Sequence record: OQ507919.1
Strand: one strand, 5' to 3'
From: Escherichia phage vB_Ec_Tarrare
DNA length: 40,953 bases
The first letter of the stretch is position 1; every line of letters begins with the position of its first letter. This document shows positions 31,201-40,548 of this stretch, piece by piece. The notes beneath the pieces are model-generated. The model worked only from the letters and a program-made list of their open reading frames with translations. It searched no databases and was not told where the DNA came from. The position numbers were made by a program, and so were the translations under genes.

Positions 31201-32229
31201 AAGTACGGTACTCAGGAGATAGCTGCTCGTTCCCCGTTCACTAAGTTACTTAACGCTACCTCTAACGTTATCGTCGATACTGCTCGTCAAGGGTTCTTAG
31301 GTAACATCGTTGAGTCTGCCCTTATGGGTAAGAAGTCCAAGTGGGGCGCTGAGCCTTTCCTTAAAGCTGCTTCGGTAACTCCTGAACAGTGGGAAGGTAT
31401 TCAGAGACTCATTCGTGACCACATGGAGTTGGGTACTGACGGGAAGTACCATATGCGAGACCAGAAGGCGTTTGCCTCAGACCCACGCAGTATGGACTTA
31501 TGGCGACTGGCTGACAGAATGGCAGACGAGACAATCCTGCGTCCTCACAAGGTATCCTTACAGGACACTAGTGCGTATGGTGCGTTAGTCAAGCTTGCTG
31601 CGCAGTTCAAAGCGTTCTCCATCAAGTCACTTAACTCTCGTCTGATAAGGGCTTATTACGATGCAACCAAGAATAACCGAGCGATTGATTCGGCTATGGT
31701 ATTGGCTGTAAGTAGTGGTTTGGGTCTAGGGATGACAGTACTGACCTCTCAGTTGAAGGCTTTAGGTCTACCTGAGAATGAGCGTAAGGAGTACTTGGAG
31801 GGTATCATGAACCCTACTATGCTGACATATGCTTCACTGGCTCGTAGCTCTCATACTGGTTCTGCGTTTGCATTGGCTGACATGCTAGGTGCTCCGTTCG
31901 GTTATAGCATGATGAAGGACTTGCGTACATCCATCGTACCACGTCCAGAAGCCGAGAAGGATACCTCAAAGGTTCCTACTCCAAAGTCTATGGCTGATAC
32001 CATCATGGGTAACTTAGGACAACAGATTCCGGCGTTAGGATTCGTTGGTGCTGTAGGTGCTACTGGCGTAGGTATCAACAAGTACCTAACGGCTGACACT
32101 AGCGCTCAACGTCAAGAGTCTCTTACTGGAATGTGGGGTGCTATGAGGAACTTAGTACCTAACGATCCGATCACTCAACAGCTACTTCTGAACATCTACG
32201 AATCTCAAGGGATCGACGTAAGGAAGTAA
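28255..32229 (+). CDS. 16: internal virion protein D with N-terminal lytic transglycosylase domain (gp16)
   Basis: 1324 aa with a GTG start after SD aggagg; MDKYDKNVPNEYDGLFQKAADANGVSYDLLRKVGWTESRF...GPLGMMQFT is the SLT-type motif; collinear with T7 gp16. Confidence 0.95.
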   Translation: MDKYDKNVPNEYDGLFQKAADANGVSYDLLRKVGWTESRFKPDAKSKTGPLGMMQFTKATAKAMGLKVTGGADDERLNPELAINAAAKHLGQLVQKFDGDELKAALAYNQGEGRLGIPQLEAYARGDFAKISAEGRNYIRNLADVARSPMSAKLEEFGGITPKAKGIPADVAFKGIDKKGSVGDTLPESTGMNLVGKEQEAKAKPFAKDFWEKRGETISEYEDRGIWSGFGESVKSEVHNSVLGMAVRTAASGGGMDVFMDSITPTRWNSHVFSEEELTKIRKEVKNPAYLNVVTGGSTETIDDLIKLANENYEADMKAAGSGVAAQLTAGVLGVAIDPTSWIPVAGAAGKGFKLVKKALVVGAESAAMSAVSEGLRTSYIGGEADYQNAMLGGFVFGSGMSALSDAVGNALRKRGVTDTDIPQNEFLGPLARMEARETALNANSLDLSRMKTDTLQFQEGAHGVKFADHPVEAGAVILEDGSIISAGNPLNPKAFKEYQQLEAKVTPKARAGVNLGGFTEIGQTILRSDNESIRKIGSDLVRSPLGLEDMSGGKFGATASDIHERIHYVDQRTYRQLDGLMKEALKDPEFSVGIFKTSREGAQQEIFKRVALAIERPELQTNLTKGELDILKVVKEHFDSKRELMENPAMFGNSKAVSIFPESRHKGTYVPNVYDTTAKNLSIQRMGSAEALQKAIADSWIVSYHARPEVKARVDESLKEVLGVEEVTLDMVNKYAMDKAYGISHSDQFQVSSVLEENLGITNAGLEGIENNSFLEARNLFDSDMPITLPDGTTFAVNDLRSFDMFKIMPAYDRRINGDIAIMGGTGKTTKELKDEINMLRQQAKGNGKLEKEANALGDVVKMLTGRARRGADNQLEIMARSLSDLSFATKNAYMGLMNLSEVASMIAKGNLRGVMANIPYVRDMAYRKHPLAPEELREISSSFFGVEIDQTLRPSRADIIQRIRETTSSQGITADILGTVKYGTQEIAARSPFTKLLNATSNVIVDTARQGFLGNIVESALMGKKSKWGAEPFLKAASVTPEQWEGIQRLIRDHMELGTDGKYHMRDQKAFASDPRSMDLWRLADRMADETILRPHKVSLQDTSAYGALVKLAAQFKAFSIKSLNSRLIRAYYDATKNNRAIDSAMVLAVSSGLGLGMTVLTSQLKALGLPENERKEYLEGIMNPTMLTYASLARSSHTGSAFALADMLGAPFGYSMMKDLRTSIVPRPEAEKDTSKVPTPKSMADTIMGNLGQQIPALGFVGAVGATGVGINKYLTADTSAQRQESLTGMWGAMRNLVPNDPITQQLLLNIYESQGIDVRK

Positions 32230-32249
32230 TACGACTCACTATTGGGAGA
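32227..32249 (+). promoter_or_regulatory. phage RNAP promoter (phi17)
   Basis: taatacgactcactattgggaga, overlapping the gene 16 stop. Confidence 0.9.
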
Positions 32250-32303: not shown

Positions 32304-34229
32304 ATGGCTAACGTAATCAAGACCGTTTTGACTTATCAGCTAAATGGTACTACTCGTGATTTTAATATTCCGTTTGAGTATCTGGCTCGTAAGTTTGTTG
32401 TGGTCACACTGTTAGGTAAAGACCGTAAGGTACTTACTCTGAATACTGATTATCGATTTGCAACTCGTACTACCATCTCCACCACTAAGGCTTGGGGACA
32501 GGCAGATGGTTACACTCACATTGAGTTACGCCGAAACACCTCAGCGACTGAACGCTTGGTGGACTTTACTGACGGTTCGATTCTACGCGCGTATGACCTG
32601 AACGTTGCTCAGATTCAGACTATGCATATTGCAGAAGAAGCTCGTGACCTTACTGCTGATACTATCGGTGTCAACAACAATGGGGACTTAGATGCTCGAA
32701 ACCGTAAGATTGTAAACTTGGCAGACGCGGTTAACCCTCGTGATGCTGTCCCTCTAGGTCAGATTCAGGGGATAAACCAGAATGCTTGGCAAGCACGAAA
32801 TGAGGCTCAACAGTTCAGAAACCAAGCTGAGACCTTTAAGAACCAAGCCCAAGGTTTCCGTAACGAAGCAGAAGCGTTCCGAAACACTACTAACCAGAAC
32901 GCACAGACTACTACAGCCGATCGTGCAGCCGCTCTACAGTCAAAGGAAGAAGCTGAGCGCGCTCGTGCTGCTGCCCAACAGTCACAACAACAGGCTGCTG
33001 CATCTCAGACAGCCGCAAGTAACTCAGCCGCTGAGGCTAAGCGTGAAGCAGATCGCTCCAAAACAGAGGCTGATAGGGCTAAAGTAGAGGCCGATAAGTT
33101 AGGAAACTGGAACCAACTTGCAGGTACTGTGGATAACGTGACTGGTACTAGCGTGACCTTTAAGGACAAGGTAGGTGCTCTAGGTGGGTTCGTATCGGCT
33201 ACTCCTGATGGATACCGATTGAAGTACACTAACTTCTCTACGATTCTACGTCAAGACGCTAATGCGTTCTACATACTGACTACCAATAAGGGAGATGTTA
33301 ACGGGCCATTCAACTCGCTACGTCCTATGTACATTGACAACGCATCGGGATGGGTGACGTTTGGTAACGGTGCGGGTGTTAATGGTAGACTCACTACGAC
33401 AGAGGGTGTTGCGGTTCCTAACTCTAAGATGTACTTCAACAAGAGCCTGATTCAGTTGGAGAGCCAGAACTTCACAGACAGGGCGGTGAACATGCGAGTT
33501 TGGGGTAACGCCTCAGGTCGTAATAACGTGTGTGAATGGGGCGATGCTCACGGTTGGCTGATGTATGTACAGCGTAGGGATTGGAATGCTAACGCTGGGT
33601 CAAACATCCAGTTAAGTGTTAACGGACAGGTGGTGGCTAATAACATTATATCCACTGGAGGGGCTTACTTCCAGAATGGACATGCTGTAACGCTGGAATC
33701 TGCGTCCAATATGGCACACTACATCATCTCTAAGGATGGCGGCAGGAACAACTGGTACGTTGGTCGTGGGACTAATGGCAACAATGACGTCGCTCTCCAC
33801 TCTTATGTACACGGAACTACTCTTTCTCTACGCCAGAACTATGCGCAGGTCAACAAGCACTTCTATGTAGGCTCCGCTGTAGTAGCAACTGATGGTAACG
33901 TTCAGGGTACTAAATGGGGCGGTAAGTGGCTTGATGTGTTCCTGAATGATACATACATTAAGAAGACCAAAGCTTGGACTCAGGTATGGTCTGGAAGTGC
34001 TGGTGGTGGTGTCAGTGTGACCGTATCCCAAGACTTGCGATTCCGTAATATCTGGATTAAGTGCGCCAACAACTCTTGGAACCACTTCCGTACAGGCCCT
34101 GATGGTATTTACTTCATTGCGTCTGATGGTGGCTGGTTGCGATTCCAGATTCACTCCAACGGTAGAGGCTTCAAGAACATTGCAGACAGTCGCTCTGTTC
34201 CTCAGGCTATCATGGTGGAGAACGAATAA
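32304..34229 (+). CDS. 17: tail fibre protein
   Basis: 641 aa; N-terminal tail-attachment domain (MANVIKTVLTYQLNGTTRDFNIPFEYLARKFVVVTL) and C-terminal tip (...WIKCANNSWNHFRTGPDGIYFIASDGGWLRFQIHSNGRGFKNIADSRSVPQAIMVENE) match T7 gp17; the central part differs and is longer. Confidence 0.95.
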   Translation: MANVIKTVLTYQLNGTTRDFNIPFEYLARKFVVVTLLGKDRKVLTLNTDYRFATRTTISTTKAWGQADGYTHIELRRNTSATERLVDFTDGSILRAYDLNVAQIQTMHIAEEARDLTADTIGVNNNGDLDARNRKIVNLADAVNPRDAVPLGQIQGINQNAWQARNEAQQFRNQAETFKNQAQGFRNEAEAFRNTTNQNAQTTTADRAAALQSKEEAERARAAAQQSQQQAAASQTAASNSAAEAKREADRSKTEADRAKVEADKLGNWNQLAGTVDNVTGTSVTFKDKVGALGGFVSATPDGYRLKYTNFSTILRQDANAFYILTTNKGDVNGPFNSLRPMYIDNASGWVTFGNGAGVNGRLTTTEGVAVPNSKMYFNKSLIQLESQNFTDRAVNMRVWGNASGRNNVCEWGDAHGWLMYVQRRDWNANAGSNIQLSVNGQVVANNIISTGGAYFQNGHAVTLESASNMAHYIISKDGGRNNWYVGRGTNGNNDVALHSYVHGTTLSLRQNYAQVNKHFYVGSAVVATDGNVQGTKWGGKWLDVFLNDTYIKKTKAWTQVWSGSAGGGVSVTVSQDLRFRNIWIKCANNSWNHFRTGPDGIYFIASDGGWLRFQIHSNGRGFKNIADSRSVPQAIMVENE

Positions 34230-34286
34230 TAACTTAACACTCAAGGAAAGACGTGTAGTCCACGGATGGACTCTCAAGGAGGTATC

Positions 34287-34499
34287 ATGCTATCTTTAGA
34301 CTTCAACAACGAACTCGTCAAGGCCGCTCCTATTGTGGGGACTGGTGTTGCCGATGTGACAACCAGATTGTTCTTTGGGCTGTCACTTAATGAGTGGTTC
34401 TACGTAGCCGCTATCGCCTACACAGTGGTTCAAATTGGTGCCAAGGTAGTCGATAAGATTATTGATTGGAAGAAGGCAACGAAGGAGATTGGAGAATGA
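34287..34499 (+). CDS. 17.5: holin (class II, gene 17.5)
   Basis: 70 aa from the ATG at 34287 (SD aaggagg); MLSLDFNNELVKAAPIVGTGVADVTTRLFFGLSLNEWFYVAAIAYTVVQIGAKVV matches T7 gp17.5. Confidence 0.9.
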   Translation: MLSLDFNNELVKAAPIVGTGVADVTTRLFFGLSLNEWFYVAAIAYTVVQIGAKVVDKIIDWKKATKEIGE

Positions 34500-34762
34500 G
34501 TGACAAGTCTTTAATCAAATTCCTAGAAATGTTGGATACAGAGATGGCTCAGCGAATGCTCATGGATTTACAGAATGACGAGCGCCGGACACCTCAACTG
34601 TACAACGCTATAGGTAAACTACTGGAACGCCATAAGTTCCAAATAGGTAAACTGACTCCTGATGAGAACATCTTGGGCGGTCTTGCTGCTGGTCTTGAAG
34701 ACTACAATAAGACGGTCGGAAAGGATGGCCTGATGGATGACGATATTTACACATTGCAGTGA
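34496..34762 (+). CDS. 18: terminase small subunit (DNA maturase A)
   Basis: 88 aa from the ATG at 34496, MSDKSLIKFLEMLDTEMAQRM...DDDIYTLQ; matches T7 gp18. Confidence 0.9.
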   Translation: MSDKSLIKFLEMLDTEMAQRMLMDLQNDERRTPQLYNAIGKLLERHKFQIGKLTPDENILGGLAAGLEDYNKTVGKDGLMDDDIYTLQ

Positions 34763-34764
34763 TA

Positions 34765-34799
34765 TACTCAAGGCCACTACAGCCAGTGGTCTTTATGGA
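34765..34799 (+). promoter_or_regulatory. RNase III-type hairpin (R18.5-like)
   Basis: tactcaaggccactacagccagtggtctttatgga. Confidence 0.5.
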
Positions 34800-34857
34800 T
34801 GTCATTGTCTACGCGATGGTGCATCTACGCGAAATCTGAGAAATGATGGGAGGATTT

Positions 34858-35298
34858 ATGTTACGGTTTTTACGTAGGCTCATCCCTTGGGTTGTCGCTG
34901 GGGCGCTATTCGGGTATGGATGGCACCTTGGGGCTGACTCTATGGATGCCAAATGGAAACAGGAGGTATACAATGAATACGTTAAGAAAACGGAAGCTAG
35001 AGCAACTACTCAGAAAGAGGTCGATGCGATTAGCAAGCGCTACCAAGAGGAGATTGCCTCTCTGGAGGGCAGCACTGATAGGATGCTTGATGACTTGCGT
35101 AACGATAATAAGCGGTTGCGCGTCAGAGTCAAGAATCTTAGTGCCACCTCAGGAGGTCTCTGTGGACGCGAGTCTGATGGTAGAGCCGAACTTGACGAGC
35201 GAGATGCTAAGCGTATTCTCGCAGTGACCCAAAAGGGAGACGCTTGGATTAAAGCTCTCCAAGACACCATACGTAAATTACAACAGAAGGAGAATTAA
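34858..35298 (+). CDS. 18.5: Rz-like i-spanin (inner-membrane spanin component)
   Basis: 146 aa from the ATG at 34858 (SD gggagg); N-terminal transmembrane helix LIPWVVAGALFGYGW and periplasmic coiled coil; matches T7 gp18.5. Confidence 0.9.
   Translation: MLRFLRRLIPWVVAGALFGYGWHLGADSMDAKWKQEVYNEYVKKTEARATTQKEVDAISKRYQEEIASLEGSTDRMLDDLRNDNKRLRVRVKNLSATSGGLCGRESDGRAELDERDAKRILAVTQKGDAWIKALQDTIRKLQQKEN
34973..35227 (+). CDS. 18.7: Rz1-like o-spanin lipoprotein, embedded in the +1 frame of 18.5
   Basis: 84 aa from the ATG at 34973 (SD aggagg); lipobox TIISGC and Pro-rich mature part; matches T7 gp18.7. Confidence 0.8.
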   Translation: MNTLRKRKLEQLLRKRSMRLASATKRRLPLWRAALIGCLMTCVTIISGCASESRILVPPQEVSVDASLMVEPNLTSEMLSVFSQ

Positions 35299-35299
35299 T

Positions 35300-36139
35300 A
35301 TGGCCCTACACGAAGTCAACCTGTGGAATTTCAATTCCCGCACACATTCGTCTCTCGACGTTGGAGCGCCTTACGGTGGCCTCTACTCTGGACGCATAGA
35401 CTTACCTGAAAGTTACCGAAAGTCTAAGATGTTCAAGGTTAGAGTTTCTGGAACACACGCTCTAGAGACCTACGCTAGCTATTCTGCTATGCTTACAGGA
35501 ATCGGAGGAACGTCGGTGTCAAACCTAAATGGTAGAGAAGCGATCATTGAGTTTAACACATCGTCCTCAACAAACGGGTTGCGAGGCATCTACTCCGTAG
35601 AGGGCGTGTTTGTTAGGGATTGGCATCCAGACGAAGCGTTGACAAAAGGTGCCGCCGAGATGTTCATAAAGCCGCATGGTGTAGACGAGTACGTTTGGAC
35701 TGGTTCTCAGTCTGTAGGTAACGGCTCAGAGTTAAACCTATTGTCCCTAAACGGGTTCTCTACCGATGTTGCCACTGGAGCCACTACCATTAACGCTGCG
35801 TCTCTTGTGGTGCTTCCTGCGGAGGTGAAGAGTAGAGGGCTGATCATTTCTGTAATCCTAGATGGCACTTATGACCAACAAGGGCCACATGAGATGAAGG
35901 TTCAGATACGAAGCGCTGATGGTAAGACGTTGCAACAATCTAGCCCATTGTATGTTCTGGACAAGAACGTCAAGAAGCTTACCGCAACATTTGCAGACTA
36001 CACCCTTGGTGTGTATGACGAAAGTAGTACCACTGGATTTAAGCTTGTATTTATCAATGATAGTACATCCAATATGTCACTGACTGGTGTACGAATCGTT
36101 GTTCAAAATATCTCTAATCCAGACTTCACACGTTCTTAA
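35300..36139 (+). CDS. hypothetical protein, no T7 counterpart (first gene of a two-gene late-region insertion)
   Basis: 279 aa ORF; SD aaggag 7 nt upstream of the ATG, which sits 1 nt after the Rz stop. Rich in S/T/G/N/V and apparently beta-rich; no signal peptide, transmembrane helix or catalytic motif recognised by eye. Confidence 0.8.
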   Translation: MALHEVNLWNFNSRTHSSLDVGAPYGGLYSGRIDLPESYRKSKMFKVRVSGTHALETYASYSAMLTGIGGTSVSNLNGREAIIEFNTSSSTNGLRGIYSVEGVFVRDWHPDEALTKGAAEMFIKPHGVDEYVWTGSQSVGNGSELNLLSLNGFSTDVATGATTINAASLVVLPAEVKSRGLIISVILDGTYDQQGPHEMKVQIRSADGKTLQQSSPLYVLDKNVKKLTATFADYTLGVYDESSTTGFKLVFINDSTSNMSLTGVRIVVQNISNPDFTRS

Positions 36140-36154
36140 AGAAGGAGAGTTAAA

Positions 36155-37267
36155 ATGTTAGTTACTCGAACGGCAACTTACACCGATTGGATATTCATGG
36201 CTGCTCACGCAAACGAGAGGGTCGATGACATTGGTCAAGGTCTCTTAGAGGGTCATATTTATTTCCGTTATGCCTATGACATGCTGAACGATGGTGACGA
36301 GGTAGTACGAGAGGTATCACATGTACATCTTAGCGATGGGTCAACATACCCTCTAGGAGAAGGAGTGTCCTCCGAAAAGATAGACATCACGTACCACGGT
36401 CTCACTAGTGATGGTAGCGTATACCTTGAGGTTAATGGACATAAGGGAATTGGTGTTAGTAGCATTACTCGTACCCTGACCATTCAATATGACGATGGGA
36501 AGGTTCCTGTTCTGGACACTGACCAACTCAAAGGGATTCTTTCAGAACTTCATGACAGCCTTGAGGCTAGTATGATTAATACCGCAAACGCTGTCAAAGA
36601 GGAACTGCGAGACGAGTTGGAAACCAAGGTGCTGGACGCCAAGGAGTCCTGCAACGAGGCTACCGAGGCTGTTAACACCGAGTTGACCGCCAAGATCGCA
36701 AATGAGAGTGGTCGCATTGATAGCCTAACGAGTACCCTTGTGACTGTTCAGGGTAACTTGGATACTACCATGAAGCGCGTTGGTAAAATCTCTCCCAATA
36801 TGGGTAAGTGGTCTTTCGGTCGATACACCATCAACTCGAAGCAGACCAACAACTTACTGGCTGCTGCGCCTACAGCGTTGGCGCCGGAAGGGTCTATCTT
36901 CACATATGATGATACCAACAAGGTCTTTAAGATGTCTGGAGGTGCTGCCCCAACAGACAGGATTCTGCGGGTTACGTTCACTACAGGGATTGACACGTTG
37001 AGTGCTGACTACCGAGGATACTTATCGTTCATGCTGCGAAACTCCAGTGGTGGAGTCTTGGCTAGCGACATGAGGTTCCTAAACATGGATGCTGGTCTTA
37101 CCCAACAACTGAGCGCCATACAGTTCAGCCTTGAGCTATACTTAGAGGCGTCTAAAGGTCATCCAGTATACAACTCAGGTATCCAGTTAGCTTTCCACAA
37201 CAGTGCTAACACGGCTCTTGCCATACTGTCCGGTGGTGTTGCAAGCTTCACCTTACTGACAGCTTAA
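36155..37267 (+). CDS. hypothetical protein with central coiled-coil segment, no T7 counterpart (second gene of the insertion)
   Basis: 370 aa ORF; SD aaggag 8 nt upstream. Residues ~121-210 (DTDQLKGILSELHDSLEASMINTANAVKEELRDELETKVLDAKESCNEATEAVNTELTAKIANESGRIDSLTSTL) look alpha-helical with a heptad-like pattern, flanked by beta-rich N- and C-terminal regions. Confidence 0.8.
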   Translation: MLVTRTATYTDWIFMAAHANERVDDIGQGLLEGHIYFRYAYDMLNDGDEVVREVSHVHLSDGSTYPLGEGVSSEKIDITYHGLTSDGSVYLEVNGHKGIGVSSITRTLTIQYDDGKVPVLDTDQLKGILSELHDSLEASMINTANAVKEELRDELETKVLDAKESCNEATEAVNTELTAKIANESGRIDSLTSTLVTVQGNLDTTMKRVGKISPNMGKWSFGRYTINSKQTNNLLAAAPTALAPEGSIFTYDDTNKVFKMSGGAAPTDRILRVTFTTGIDTLSADYRGYLSFMLRNSSGGVLASDMRFLNMDAGLTQQLSAIQFSLELYLEASKGHPVYNSGIQLAFHNSANTALAILSGGVASFTLLTA

Positions 37268-37288
37268 TTTAAATAAAGGAGGGACGCT

Positions 37289-39052
37289 ATGTCTTATACC
37301 CAAAGTAACCGCAATGCTCTCATTGTGGCTCAACTAAAGGGTGACTTCGTAGCGTTCCTATTCGTCTTATGGAAGGCGTTAAACCTTCCGGTTCCTACCC
37401 GTTGTCAGATTGACATGGCTAAGGTATTGGCGAATGGGGACAACAAGAAGTTTATCCTACAGGCTTTCCGTGGTATCGGTAAGTCATTCATCACTTGTGC
37501 GTTCGTTGTGTGGACGTTATGGCGTGATCCTCAGATGAAGATACTCATTGTGTCTGCCTCTAAGGAACGTGCTGACGCTAACTCCATCTTCATCAAGAAC
37601 ATCATTGATTTGCTGCCTTTCCTTGCTGAGTTGAAACCTCGCGCTGGTCAACGTGACTCTGTGATTAGTTTTGACGTAGGCCCTGCTAAGCCTGACCATT
37701 CTCCTAGTGTGAAGTCCGTAGGTATCACTGGTCAGTTGACTGGTAGCCGTGCTGACATCATCATTGCGGATGACGTTGAGATTCCGTCTAACAGTTCCAC
37801 TATGGGCGCTCGTGAGAAGCTCTGGACTCTCGTTCAGGAATTTGCTGCATTGTTGAAACCTCTGGAGACCTCTCGTGTTATCTACCTTGGTACGCCTCAG
37901 ACAGAGATGACTCTCTATAAGGAACTTGAGGACAACCGTGGTTACACTACGATTATCTGGCCCGCTCTTTATCCACGCTCTAAGGAGGAAGACTTGTACT
38001 ACAGCAACCGTCTGGCTCCTATGCTCCGTGAAGAGTACAATGAGAATCCAGAAGGTCTTGCAGGTACTCCTACTGACCCTGTACGATTCGATACTGACGA
38101 TCTTCGTGAGCGTGAGTTGGAATACGGTAAGGCTGGCTTCACTTTGCAGTTCATGCTTAACCCTAACCTTAGTGATGCCGAGAAGTACCCTCTGAGGCTC
38201 CGTGACGCGATCGTAGCGGCTCTGGACTTAGAGAAGGCCCCAATGCATTACCAATGGCTCCCGAACCGTCAGAACATTATTGAGGACTTACCTAACGTTG
38301 GTCTTAAGGGTGATGATCTACATACGTATCATGAGTGCTCCAGTAACTCTGGTCAGTACCAACAGAAGATACTTGTGGTTGACCCTAGTGGTCGCGGTAA
38401 GGACGAAACAGGTTACGCCGTGTTGTACACTCTGAACGGCTACATCTACCTAATGGAAGCTGGTGGTTTCCGTGAAGGTTACTCCGATAAGACCCTTGAG
38501 GCTCTCGCTAGGAAAGCCAAACAGTGGAAGGTTCAAACGGTTGTCTACGAGAGTAACTTCGGTGACGGTATGTTTGGTAAGGTGTTTAGTCCTATCCTTC
38601 TTAAACATCATAATTGCATCATGGAAGAGATTCGTGCTCGTGGTATGAAGGAAGTACGTATTTGTGATACCTTAGAGCCTGTCATGCAGACTCACCGCTT
38701 GGTTATCCGAGATGAGGTCATTAGGGCAGACTATCAGACTGCTCGTGATGCTGACGGTAAACATGATGTCAAATACTCGCTGTTCTACCAGATGACTCGC
38801 ATCACTCGTGAGAAAGGTGCTCTTGCTCATGATGACCGATTGGATGCCTTAGCGTTAGGCGTAGAGTTCCTACGTGAGTCCATGCAACTGGATAGCGTCA
38901 AGGTTGAAGGTGAGGTGCTTGCAGACTTCCTTGAAGATCACATGAGTCGTCCAACTATTGGCGCTCAGAGTATCATTGAGATGTCTTTAGGTGGTATCGA
39001 CTTGTACGCAGAGGATGAAGGCTGGGGTAACTCTCAGTTCATCGAATGGTGA
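37289..39052 (+). CDS. 19: terminase large subunit (DNA maturase B)
   Basis: 587 aa; ATPase and nuclease regions; collinear with T7 gp19. Confidence 0.97.
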
Positions 39053-39133: not shown

Positions 39134-39156
39134 TAATACGACTCACTATTGGGAGA
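39134..39156 (+). promoter_or_regulatory. phage RNAP promoter (phiOR-like)
   Basis: taatacgactcactattgggaga, between genes 19 and 19.5. Confidence 0.9.
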
Positions 39157-40010: not shown

Positions 40011-40048
40011 AGTTAGCTATAGAGAGTTATCTCTAATCATGGTCTTAT

Positions 40049-40071
40049 TAATACAACTCACTATTGGGAGA
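40049..40071 (+). promoter_or_regulatory. phage RNAP promoter (phiOL-like)
   Basis: taatacaactcactattgggaga (A for G at -11), in the same relative place as T7 phiOL. Confidence 0.75.
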
Positions 40072-40104
40072 TACTCTATAGACTACTTAAAGAGGAGGGT
40101 TATC

Positions 40105-40548
40105 ATGTATCAAGGATTAACTATATCAAATGGTGTCTTAATAAGGGAGTCAACAGGTAAACCTTGTAAGACATTCTCTAACGGTAAATACCTAAGGATA
40201 AACCATAAAGGCCGGATGTATTACCTACACCGTGTCTTGTGGGAACTTACACACGGCTCAATACCTAAGGGTTACACTATAGACCATATAGACGGTAATC
40301 CTACAAATAACAATATTGACAACCTAAGGTTAGCCTCTTATAGTGAGAACAACATGAATCGGGTATCTACGGTAGACAATGGCCTACCTCAAGGTATCTA
40401 CTGGTGTAACTCTAAGAGTCGCTATGTGGCTCAGGTGGTAGCTCAAGGCGTTAAGAGAACAAAGACCTCAAAGAGCCTTGATGTAGTCACTGAGTGGGTT
40501 AAAGAGACACGAAAAGAGATTCATAAAGAATTTGCCATTAAGTGTTGA
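40105..40548 (+). CDS. HNH-AP2 homing endonuclease-like protein in the left-end leader
   Basis: 147 aa from the ATG at 40105 (SD aggagg); YTIDHIDGNPTNNNIDNLRLASYSENNMN is the HNH motif, with an AP2-like C-terminal half; paralogous in type to gene 3.8. T7 has no gene between phiOL and the A promoters as far as I recall. Confidence 0.8.
   Translation: MYQGLTISNGVLIRESTGKPCKTFSNGKYLRINHKGRMYYLHRVLWELTHGSIPKGYTIDHIDGNPTNNNIDNLRLASYSENNMNRVSTVDNGLPQGIYWCNSKSRYVAQVVAQGVKRTKTSKSLDVVTEWVKETRKEIHKEFAIKC

What the first reader, a model, noticed from the sequence alone, without database searches (positions are those of the whole stretch)
36155..37267. Second inserted protein has fibre-like architecture: beta-rich domain, about 90-residue helical core, beta-rich C-terminal domain
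Residues ~121-210 (nt ~36515-36784) are charged and helical-looking with a heptad-like spacing of L/I/V/A, the pattern of trimeric coiled-coil stalks in phage fibres and adhesins; the last ~150 residues are G/S/T/N-rich like a distal binding domain. With the expanded gene 17, this raises the possibility of a second receptor-binding protein on a T7-type virion, which normally carries one fibre type. The helical call is by eye, not computed.
Basis: inference. Interest (0 to 1): 0.65.

Follow-up and report, generated by a model that had tools for sequence, protein, structure and literature searches.

The report
Stalked TNF-like knob protein, T7-type phage
A T7-type coliphage carries, between its lysis and DNA-packaging genes, a swappable two-gene cassette whose second gene encodes a fibre-shaped protein (beta-sandwich base, about 13 nm helical stalk, TNF-like knob of a kind known only as trimers); it is most likely an extra cell-surface-binding fibre, but nobody has shown that it sits on the virus particle.

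Summary
The ORF at 36155-37267 (370 aa; TARRARE_45 of Escherichia phage vB_Ec_Tarrare, "hypothetical") is modelled by AlphaFold2 as three parts:
- a beta-sandwich, residues 2-113;
- one continuous helix, residues 122-210;
- a beta jelly roll, residues 215-369.

Two details need correcting. The stalk periodicity is 3.65-3.70 (hendecad), not heptad. The C-terminus is not notably G/S/T/N-rich.

The C-terminal domain has a TNF/C1q-like fold. Its best matches are trimeric TNF-like lectins, the phage Sf6 tail-needle knob and 4-1BBL, which implies a homotrimer.

The family is rare: 36 hits among 1.84 billion representative proteins, and every context inspected is T7-like. Its N-terminus is conserved, its stalk length varies, and its knob is hypervariable.

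The upstream gene (35300-36139) is a stalk-less paralogue. The two genes form a sharply bounded mosaic cassette between Rz and gp19. It diverges far more than the tail fibre gp17 does between near-identical phages.

Berlinvirus phages carry a shorter gene in the same slot, with a structurally similar N-domain.

Best reading: a late-expressed trimeric accessory adhesin or fibre (about 0.5). Virion attachment and receptor binding are inferred, not shown.

The parts
36155..37267 (+). Gene B (the finding): 370-aa protein, TARRARE_45, made of an N-terminal beta-sandwich, a long helix and a TNF-like knob
   Evidence: ORF; 100% identity to TARRARE_45; AF2 model
36155..36514 (+). N_B domain (aa 1-120): seven-strand beta-sandwich and the conserved part of the family
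36518..36784 (+). Stalk (aa 122-210): a single 89-residue amphipathic helix with hendecad (about 3.67) periodicity, roughly 13 nm if straight
   Evidence: AF2 helix 122-210. Periodicity is 3.65-3.80 in all 36 family members. Stalk spacer length varies from 96 to 187 aa across the family. Only sub-threshold, repeat-driven Pfam/PDB hits to apolipoproteins.
36797..37261 (+). C-terminal knob (aa 215-369): TNF/C1q-like jelly roll and the hypervariable part of the family
   Evidence: Foldseek against PDB gives prob 1.0 and TMt 0.53-0.65. Hits include the TNF-like lectins PLTL (9ib7) and BC2L-C-Nt (2wq4, 6tid), the Sf6 tail-needle knob (3rwn), 4-1BBL, EDA and ExsFA. Mean pairwise identity is about 26% at a constant length of 147-156 aa.
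35300..36139 (+). Gene A: 279-aa stalk-less paralogue (N_A domain plus a knob-like C-terminal domain). NCBI names it 'putative hydrolase', which nothing here supports.
   Evidence: hhalign of A aa 135-265 against the B knob gives E 4e-5 and prob 69.5%. The bridging family A4 links both: prob 95.8% to A and 99.95% to B. There are 20 homologues at 47-73% identity. No family hits in Pfam, NCBIfam, PADLOC or PDB sequence search.
36142..36147 (+). Shine-Dalgarno AAGGAG of gene B; 15-nt spacer after the stop codon of gene A
   Evidence: Sequence read
35287..35294 (+). Shine-Dalgarno GAAGGAGA of gene A, inside the 3' end of Rz; the ATG of A lies 1 nt after the Rz stop codon
   Evidence: Sequence read
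34843..35298 (+). Left flank: gene 18.5 (Rz spanin). Its stop codon is the left boundary of the mosaic cassette.
   Evidence: Nucleotide identity to the closest relative L005 is about 95% up to 35273 and falls to 50-65% beyond. In 13a/T7, Rz is followed directly by gene 19.
37289..39052 (+). Right flank: gene 19 (large terminase). Its start codon is the right boundary of the cassette.
   Evidence: Nucleotide identity to L005 recovers from about 45% to 94% at 37262-37359. The protein is 98% identical.
32227..32249 (+). phi17-type phage promoter driving the late transcription unit that contains genes 17, 17.5, 18, 18.5, A, B and 19
   Evidence: Promoter scan: the next phage promoter is at 39134. 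No terminator-like site lies in 34200-37400.
32304..34229 (+). Gene 17: the primary T7-type tail fibre (641 aa), for context
   Evidence: Pfam finds the PF03906 anchor plus the T7-type C-terminal domains. It is 54% identical to 13a gp17, with 83 extra residues in the shaft.

Best explanation
Gene B encodes a homotrimeric, fibre-shaped accessory adhesin. It is made late in infection together with a stalk-less paralogue (gene A), from a swappable two-gene cassette.

Proposed mechanism:
1. Three chains associate through the C-terminal TNF/C1q-like knob and zip into a straight or slightly right-handed hendecad coiled coil about 13 nm long.
2. The conserved N-terminal beta-sandwich forms the base. 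The base docks the fibre to a phage component; the site is unresolved and could be the gp17 fibre, the tail or the capsid surface.
3. The hypervariable knob binds a variable host surface structure, most plausibly an LPS O-antigen or another glycan.
4. This gives a T7-type phage, whose gp17 fibre recognises LPS core, a second exchangeable specificity.

Shown here: the ORF, the three-domain architecture, the hendecad periodicity, the TNF-like fold, the conservation gradient, the stalk-length polymorphism, the paralogy with gene A, the sharp mosaic boundaries, and the placement in the late operon.

Inferred: trimer formation, virion attachment, and glycan or receptor binding.
For: Architecture:
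- AF2 gives a beta-sandwich at 2-113, one helix at 122-210 and a jelly roll at 215-369.

Knob fold:
- Foldseek against PDB matches only obligate-trimer TNF/C1q-like proteins at prob 1.0. These include the glycan-bound lectins PLTL and BC2L-C-Nt, the Sf6 tail-needle knob, and the 372-aa chain 9k09_A of the cyanophage A4 portal-tail complex.
- That chain is probably the tail fibre gp24, described as an N-terminal domain, a three-helix stem and a C-terminal binding domain (PMC12002296).

Stalk:
- Hydrophobic periodicity is 3.65-3.80 in all 36 family members.
- Stalk length varies from 96 to 187 aa while the knob length stays constant.

Conservation gradient:
- The N-domain is 65% identical on average; the stalk and knob are about 25%.

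Modularity:
- The same coil and knob are found behind a different N-domain (N_A type) in P0050, P0053, P0054 and P0056.
- A B-type protein with a long coil but no knob occurs in L007.

Divergence of the cassette:
- Against the nearest relative L005, the flanking proteins are 88-100% identical, with the gp17 tip at 91%. Gene A is 51% and gene B 43% identical, and the knob region 25%.
- Nucleotide identity breaks exactly at the Rz stop codon and recovers at the gp19 start codon.

Expression:
- The cassette lies in the phi17-driven late unit, with strong Shine-Dalgarno sequences and no internal terminator.

Biological rationale:
- T7-like Studiervirinae depend on LPS core and are blocked by O-antigen (PMC11990801). 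That leaves a niche for an accessory glycan-binding fibre.
Against: - There is no evidence that the protein is in virions.
- It lacks the PF03906 gp17 anchor and has no sequence similarity to gp17.
- The N-domain is only 64-73% identical between phages whose virion proteins are 88-98% identical. That is less conserved than expected for a domain docking on a conserved virion site.
- The Sf6/HS1 TNF-like knob did not confer host specificity in P22 hybrids (PMC3741392).
- Hypervariable, sharply bounded cassettes are also typical of counter-defence genes.
- The oligomeric state was not modelled; only monomer prediction was available.
Confidence: 0.5

Rival explanations
1. The protein is virion-borne but does not determine host specificity. 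Instead it acts like a needle, whisker or head fibre. Examples are P22/Sf6 tail needles, T4 fibritin and phi29 head fibres; the last two are recalled from general knowledge. Its role would be sensing, fibre retention, particle stability or non-specific adhesion.
For: - The base, coiled-coil and knob layout matches these appendages.
- The Sf6 knob is among the best fold matches, and it did not confer specificity in P22 hybrids.
- The needle family also alternates between forms with and without a knob and varies in shaft length. The B family does the same.
Against: - The knob is by far the most variable part of the late region, at 25% identity between phages with 91%-identical gp17 tips. That is hard to explain without a variable ligand.
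- T7-type tails have no known needle socket.
Confidence: 0.15
2. The protein is a soluble late lectin that is not part of the particle. Released at lysis, it coats LPS or receptors on debris, outer-membrane vesicles or neighbouring cells. This would protect progeny from abortive adsorption or exclude competing phages.
For: - The gene sits immediately after the spanin genes, with gene A translationally abutting Rz.
- The knob resembles soluble TNF-like lectins.
- No recognisable virion anchor is present.
Against: - A free lectin has no obvious need for a conserved base domain plus a stalk that varies about two-fold in length.
- There is no signal peptide or lipobox (sequence).
- The lectin resemblance is at fold level only, with 10-14% identity.
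Confidence: 0.15
3. The protein acts inside the cell, as a counter-defence decoy or inhibitor, or as an assembly factor or chaperone for gp17. In this reading the fibre-like shape is incidental.
For: - The cassette is a sharply bounded, rapidly exchanged accessory module, as many anti-defence loci are.
- The family is rare and restricted to one phage clade.
- The gp17 of cassette-bearing phages has an enlarged shaft.
Against: - Late expression with structural genes is atypical for counter-defence genes.
- There is no match in PADLOC, Pfam or NCBIfam beyond coiled-coil noise.
- TNF-like knobs on coiled coils are extracellular binding modules in all matched precedents.
- A chaperone would be expected to track gp17, yet gp17 is 88% identical where B is 43%.
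Confidence: 0.15

Closest known systems
Tail needle of P22-like phages with an Sf6-type knob (Sf6 gp9, HS1; PDB 3rwn)
   Same: - A trimeric coiled-coil shaft ends in a C-terminal TNF-like jelly-roll knob (Foldseek E 5.5e-6, TMt 0.62).
- The family alternates between forms with and without a knob and varies in shaft length. The B family does the same.
   Different: - The needle has a short, 27-residue N-terminal plug that sits in the tail channel. B has a 113-residue beta-sandwich instead.
- The needle shaft is heptad; the B stalk is hendecad.
- There is no sequence similarity (11% identity).
- T7-type tails have no known needle.
Bacterial TNF-like lectins (Photorhabdus PLTL, 9ib7; Burkholderia BC2L-C N-terminal domain, 2wq4/6tid)
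   Same: - These are the best fold matches of the knob (E 4e-6 to 6e-5, TMt 0.59-0.65).
- They are trimeric jelly rolls solved in complex with histo-blood-group glycans.
   Different: - They are bacterial proteins without an N-terminal base or a stalk.
- Identity is only 10-13%.
- Conservation of sugar-binding residues could not be tested.
Cyanopodophage A4 tail fibre gp24 (portal-tail complex 9k09; PMC12002296)
   Same: - It is about the same size (372 aa) and has the same three-part plan: N-terminal attachment domain, long helical stem and C-terminal beta binding domain. It sits on a T7-like short tail.
- Foldseek hit 9k09_A, E 7.8e-5. The match of that chain to gp24 is inferred from its length.
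   Different: - In A4 it is the only, primary fibre, docked at the adaptor-nozzle junction through an XD2-like domain.
- Tarrare already has gp17 in that role, and the N-domain of B is a different fold.
Uncharacterised Berlinvirus gene between 18.5 and 19 (FE44 FIVT_0044, BA14, 285P, Berlin, Yepe2, Yep-phi; phrog_20446 and phrog_27102)
   Same: - It occupies the same genomic slot.
- Its N-domain matches N_B by fold (Foldseek E 5.9e-6, TMq 0.62) and N_A by sequence motifs.
- It shares the plan of an N-domain, a linker and a variable C-terminus.
   Different: - It is only 185-218 aa, with no long coil and no TNF-like knob.
- Its function is unknown.
- The N_A and N_B profiles are not significantly similar by hhalign.
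T7 gp17 tail fibre
   Same: - It is a trimeric fibre with a coiled-coil shaft and a distal beta domain, encoded in the same late operon.
   Different: - B lacks the PF03906 tail-anchor domain and has no sequence similarity to gp17.
- The polarity differs: the gp17-tip-like sandwich is at the N-terminus of B.

Membership tests
T7 gp17-type tail fibre (Pfam PF03906 family) | N-terminal Phage_T7_tail domain that docks at the gp11/gp12 junction | tested here: not met
   There is no PF03906 hit at E<=1 for B, whereas the window's gp17 scores 3.8e-62. hhalign of the N_B profile against gp17 gives prob 0.07%.
TNF/C1q-like jelly-roll knob (fold level) | A jelly roll of about 130-160 residues that superposes on TNF-family or C1q-family protomers | tested here: met
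   Foldseek against PDB gives 91 hits at E<=1e-3. The top hits are TNF-like lectins, the Sf6 knob, 4-1BBL, EDA, RANKL and ExsFA, at prob 1.0 and TMt 0.5-0.65. The N-domain searched alone gives none of these, so the match belongs to residues 215-369.
TNF/C1q-like jelly-roll knob (fold level) | Homotrimeric assembly around a three-fold axis | not testable with these tools
   Only monomer prediction was available. The trimer is inferred from the precedents.
Coiled-coil fibre stalk | A long uninterrupted helix with a regular hydrophobic repeat that is conserved across homologues | tested here: met
   AF2 gives a single helix at 122-210. Periodicity is 3.65-3.80 in 36 of 36 sequences, with z from 2.4 to 12.5. 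The repeat is hendecad rather than the heptad proposed.
P22-like tail needle (gp26 / Sf6 gp9) | A homologous N-terminal virion-binding plug and a heptad shaft | tested here: not met
   No PHROG or Pfam needle family is hit. The N-terminus is a 113-aa beta-sandwich, and the periodicity is not 3.5.
Apolipoprotein A1/A4/E (PF01442) | Score above the Pfam gathering threshold | tested here: not met
   The score is 12.8 bits against a cutoff of 90. PDB profile hits to ApoA-IV and ApoA-I cover only the 11-mer helical repeat, so this is repeat-type similarity, not membership.
Virion structural protein / receptor-binding protein | Physical presence in the particle and binding to a host receptor | not testable with these tools
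   No proteomics or literature exists for Tarrare or for the slot family.
Hydrolase (NCBI name of neighbouring gene A) | A recognisable catalytic domain | tested here: not met
   There is no hit in Pfam, NCBIfam, PADLOC or PDB sequence search. The C-terminal half aligns with the knob of B.

The most novel reading that the evidence does not exclude
Tarrare-like T7-type phages carry a previously unrecognised, horizontally swappable two-gene accessory adhesin system in the Rz-terminase slot. It comprises one sessile and one stalked TNF-like-knob trimer. These sit on the virion, on the capsid or on the gp17/tail, and give a second, glycan-directed host specificity. The short Berlinvirus slot gene would be a reduced member of the same system.
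Probability: 0.35. Interest if true: 0.72.

Novelty: new variant of a known kind. Interest (0 to 1): 0.58.

Why it matters
T7 and its relatives are the reference model for short-tailed phages and are assumed to carry a single fibre type.

If this cassette is a second, exchangeable adhesin system, three things follow:
- It would change how host range is predicted and engineered in Studiervirinae, which are widely used in therapy, diagnostics and phage display.
- It would supply a compact modular scaffold (base, tunable stalk, swappable TNF-like knob) for retargeting.
- It would give a first functional lead for the unannotated gene in the same slot of Berlinvirus phages, including plague-diagnostic phages such as Yep-phi.

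Even if the protein is not virion-borne, the locus stands out. It is the fastest-diverging part of the late region and is delimited to within a few bases of the flanking gene ends.

Tried and rejected
Family and similarity searches that found nothing useful for B:
- Pfam, PHROGs, PADLOC and NCBIfam gave only sub-threshold coiled-coil noise: Apolipoprotein, KxDL, LeoA and MukB.
- megablast and tblastn against 50,697 phage records found no match for B or for the cassette DNA.
- Gene A gave one weak hit, in Salmonella phage SP154.
- An IMG/VR scan with the N_B profile found nothing.
- The PDB sequence-profile search returned only apolipoprotein 11-mer repeats. These were rejected as repeat-type similarity.

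Homology tests that failed:
- hhalign of N_B against gp17 showed no similarity.
- hhalign of N_A-type against N_B profiles was not significant. The link between the two N-domains therefore rests only on the Foldseek match of N_B to the FE44 model.
- A profile search of the 5.8-billion-protein set with the N_A/Berlinvirus alignment returned only four Berlinvirus-type proteins and no informative domain fusions.

Annotation rejected:
- The 'putative hydrolase' name of gene A is unsupported.

Literature:
- Searches on Tarrare, on Yep-phi virion proteomics and on second fibres in Studiervirinae found nothing relevant. The Yep-phi proteomics paper is not held.

Other dead ends:
- I tried to locate the Dickeya phage Dagda and Klebsiella phage Sibilus homologues in their genomes and failed for lack of accession numbers. 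The related phage Ninurta has an empty slot.
- A link between the enlarged gp17 shaft and the cassette could not be established.
- The weak clustering of stalk lengths in phase with 3.67 is not treated as evidence, because the sequences are related to one another.

Full report
**Identity and setting**

The window is the genome of Escherichia phage vB_Ec_Tarrare. The product of ORF 36155-37267 is 100% identical to TARRARE_45, annotated 'hypothetical protein'.

The late region has the T7 gene order: 16, 17, 17.5, 18, 18.5 (with 18.7 inside it) and 19. It is about 80% identical in nucleotides to T7 and 13a.

Two extra genes lie between 18.5 (Rz) and 19:
- gene A, 35300-36139, 279 aa;
- gene B, 36155-37267, 370 aa, which is the finding.

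In 13a and T7, Rz is followed directly by gene 19.

The only T7-type promoters near the cassette are phi17 at 32227 and one at 39134. No terminator-like site lies between 34200 and 37400. Both genes have strong Shine-Dalgarno sequences and are tightly packed against their neighbours. A and B are therefore part of the late (class III-like) transcription unit, together with structural, lysis and packaging genes.

**Check of the observation**

AlphaFold2 on a 36-sequence alignment (mean pLDDT 84.9) gives three parts:
- beta strands over residues 2-113;
- one uninterrupted helix, residues 122-210;
- a beta domain, residues 215-369, with pLDDT mostly above 90.

A Fourier analysis of hydrophobicity shows that the stalk periodicity is 3.65 in Tarrare (z 3.1). 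It is 3.65-3.80 in every one of 35 homologues (z up to 12.5), with little power at 3.5. The repeat is hendecad (11/3), not heptad.

The stalk is charged (30% D/E/K/R) and free of proline. The C-terminal domain is not specially G/S/T/N-rich: 34% against 32% overall.

**The C-terminal domain**

Foldseek against the PDB returns 91 hits at E<=1e-3. The top hits are all TNF/C1q-like jelly rolls of 130-160 residues, at prob 1.0 and TMt 0.5-0.65:
- the TNF-like lectins PLTL and BC2L-C-Nt, solved with blood-group glycans;
- the phage Sf6 tail-needle knob;
- 4-1BBL, EDA-A1 and RANKL;
- the exosporium protein ExsFA.

The list also contains a 372-residue chain of the cyanophage A4 portal-tail complex. 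That phage's tail fibre gp24 is described as an N-terminal attachment domain, a three-helix stem and a C-terminal binding domain (PMC12002296).

Every one of these precedents is a homotrimer, so a trimer is the natural inference for B. It could not be modelled here.

The N-domain searched alone gives none of these matches. The TNF-like assignment therefore belongs to residues 215-369.

**The N-terminal domain**

Modelled alone, the domain reaches pLDDT 90.3 and pTM 0.79 and forms a seven-strand beta-sandwich.

Against predicted viral structures, the best matches are small uncharacterised proteins of other Autographiviridae. They are led by a 185-aa protein of Erwinia phage FE44 (E 5.9e-6, TMq 0.62). 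That gene lies in exactly the same slot, between 18.5 and 19.

Homologues of the FE44 gene occur in 58 phage records, all unannotated. They include BA14, 285P, Berlin, Yepe2 and Yep-phi (phrog_20446 and phrog_27102). Each consists of an N-domain of about 115 residues, a Pro/Glu-rich linker and a short variable C-terminus.

**Family anatomy**

Exhaustive phmmer over 1.84 billion representative proteins finds only 36 relatives. The word-indexed search finds 39, all from Logan metagenome assemblies apart from Tarrare itself.

| Region of B | Mean pairwise identity | Length |
|---|---|---|
| Residues 1-150 | 65% | constant |
| Stalk | about 25% | variable |
| Knob | about 25% | constant, 147-156 aa |

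The spacer between the end of the N-domain and the knob motif ranges from 96 to 187 residues.

The contexts recovered are all T7-like and carry the cassette in the same slot.

**Relation to gene A and modularity**

Gene A has 20 homologues at 47-73% identity and is conserved evenly along its length.

Profile comparison aligns its C-terminal half (aa 135-265) with the knob of B (E 4e-5, prob 69.5%).

A bridging group of proteins (P0050, P0053, P0054, P0056) carries an A-type N-domain followed by a coil and a B-type knob. It matches A at 95.8% probability across both domains, skipping the coil. It matches the coil and knob of B at 99.95%.

A is therefore a stalk-less paralogue of B.

At least three cassette forms exist:
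1. Rz - [N_A-knob] - [N_B-coil-knob] - gp19, in the window, L001, L002, L004 and L005.
2. Rz - [N_A'-coil-knob] - [N_B-...] - gp19, in L006 and L007. The second protein is complete only in L007, where it is a 314-aa N_B-long-coil protein with no knob.
3. Rz - [N_A-knob] - [N_A'-coil-knob] - gp19, in L010.

The N_A-type and N_B profiles are not significantly similar by sequence. Their relationship rests on the fold match through the FE44 model.

**Evolutionary behaviour**

Against the closest relative, L005, amino-acid identities are as follows:

| Protein | Identity to Tarrare |
|---|---|
| gp16 | 91% |
| gp17 | 88% (tip 91%) |
| holin | 100% |
| gp18 | 100% |
| Rz | 92% |
| gene A | 51% |
| gene B | 43% (25% beyond residue 150) |
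| gp19 | 98% |

Nucleotide identity falls from about 95% to 50-65% exactly at the Rz stop codon. It recovers to 94% at the gp19 start codon.

The cassette is thus a sharply bounded, rapidly exchanged module. It diverges more than the primary tail fibre does.

**Interpretation**

The following features together are the signature of phage receptor-binding fibres:
- a conserved base, a stalk of variable length and a hypervariable distal knob;
- a TNF-like fold whose precedents are trimers;
- domain shuffling within the slot;
- late expression;
- extreme allelic divergence beside a conserved gp17 tip.

A plausible biological niche exists. T7-like Studiervirinae depend on LPS core and are blocked by O-antigen (PMC11990801).

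I therefore favour a trimeric accessory adhesin carried on the virion, at about 0.5.

The weak points are these:
- There is no evidence of virion incorporation.
- There is no identifiable docking domain or partner.
- The N-domain is less conserved than the virion proteins are.
- The Sf6/HS1 knob did not set host specificity in P22 hybrids (PMC3741392).

Three rivals are each rated about 0.15:
- a virion appendage with a non-specificity role, like a needle, whisker or head fibre;
- a soluble lectin released at lysis that masks receptors or debris;
- an intracellular counter-defence or assembly role.

No defence-related or enzymatic family is matched. The 'putative hydrolase' label of gene A has no support.

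**Novelty and score**

The kind of object is known: a phage fibre or adhesin with a coiled-coil stalk and a TNF-like knob.

Several aspects are undescribed:
- The family has no Pfam or PHROG model for B.
- It has no relative in 50,697 deposited phage genomes other than Tarrare itself, and none in IMG/VR.
- The two-gene paralogous cassette, its slot in a T7-type genome, and its tie to the unannotated Berlinvirus slot gene have not been reported.

I rate it a new variant of a known kind, with interest 0.58.

Noticed in passing
window 35300-36139 (+): The first inserted gene (279 aa) is named 'putative hydrolase' in NCBI, but it matches no enzyme family. By profile comparison it is a stalk-less paralogue of the finding: an N_A domain plus a knob-like C-terminal domain. 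No structure prediction was run for it.
   Followed up: partly
window 35274-35300 and 37262-37289; locus L005: Nucleotide identity to the nearest metagenomic relative drops from about 95% to 50-60% at the Rz stop codon and returns to about 94% at the gp19 start codon. The two-gene cassette is therefore a precisely bounded mosaic module, more divergent than the tail fibre gene.
   Followed up: yes
L011 (Erwinia phage FE44, KF700371) 36698-37255; L012 (Yep-phi) 1435-2091: Berlinvirus phages (BA14, 285P, FE44, Berlin, Yepe2, Yep-phi and others; 58 records) carry an unannotated gene in the same Rz-gp19 slot. It has an N-domain, a Pro/Glu-rich linker and a short variable C-terminus. The N-domain resembles N_B by fold and N_A by sequence motifs. 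The annotated Yep-phi start overlaps Rz and is probably too far upstream.
   Followed up: partly
L007 1172-2116; L010 2690-3736; L006 466-1584: Alternative cassette forms exist in related metagenomic phages. In some, the coil and knob sit behind the A-type N-domain. One B-type protein (L007, 314 aa) has a long coil and no knob. One cassette (L010) lacks the B-type N-domain altogether.
   Followed up: partly
window 32304-34229 (+): gp17 is an ordinary T7-type fibre (PF03906 anchor plus T7-type pyramid and tip), but its shaft has 83 extra residues. These include a T4 Gp34_trimer-like domain at aa 255-344. Whether that domain is a docking site for A or B is unknown.
   Followed up: partly
window 15801, 19093, 20137, 24493, 32227, 39134 (+): Six identical phage promoters, TAATACGACTCACTATTGGGAGA, differ from the T7 consensus at one position (T for A just before GGGAGA). 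This suggests a slightly shifted RNA polymerase specificity.
   Followed up: no
window 40039-40548 (+): This ORF carries an HNH-type homing-endonuclease motif (HIDGNPTNNNIDNL). A phage promoter-like site lies at 40049-40071, inside its annotated 5' end, so the true start is probably the internal Met at about 40105.
   Followed up: no
window 34892-35227 (+), inside Rz: An embedded +1-frame ORF contains a lipobox-like IISGC. This is the expected Rz1 (18.7) o-spanin, which is ordinary for T7-type phages.
   Followed up: no
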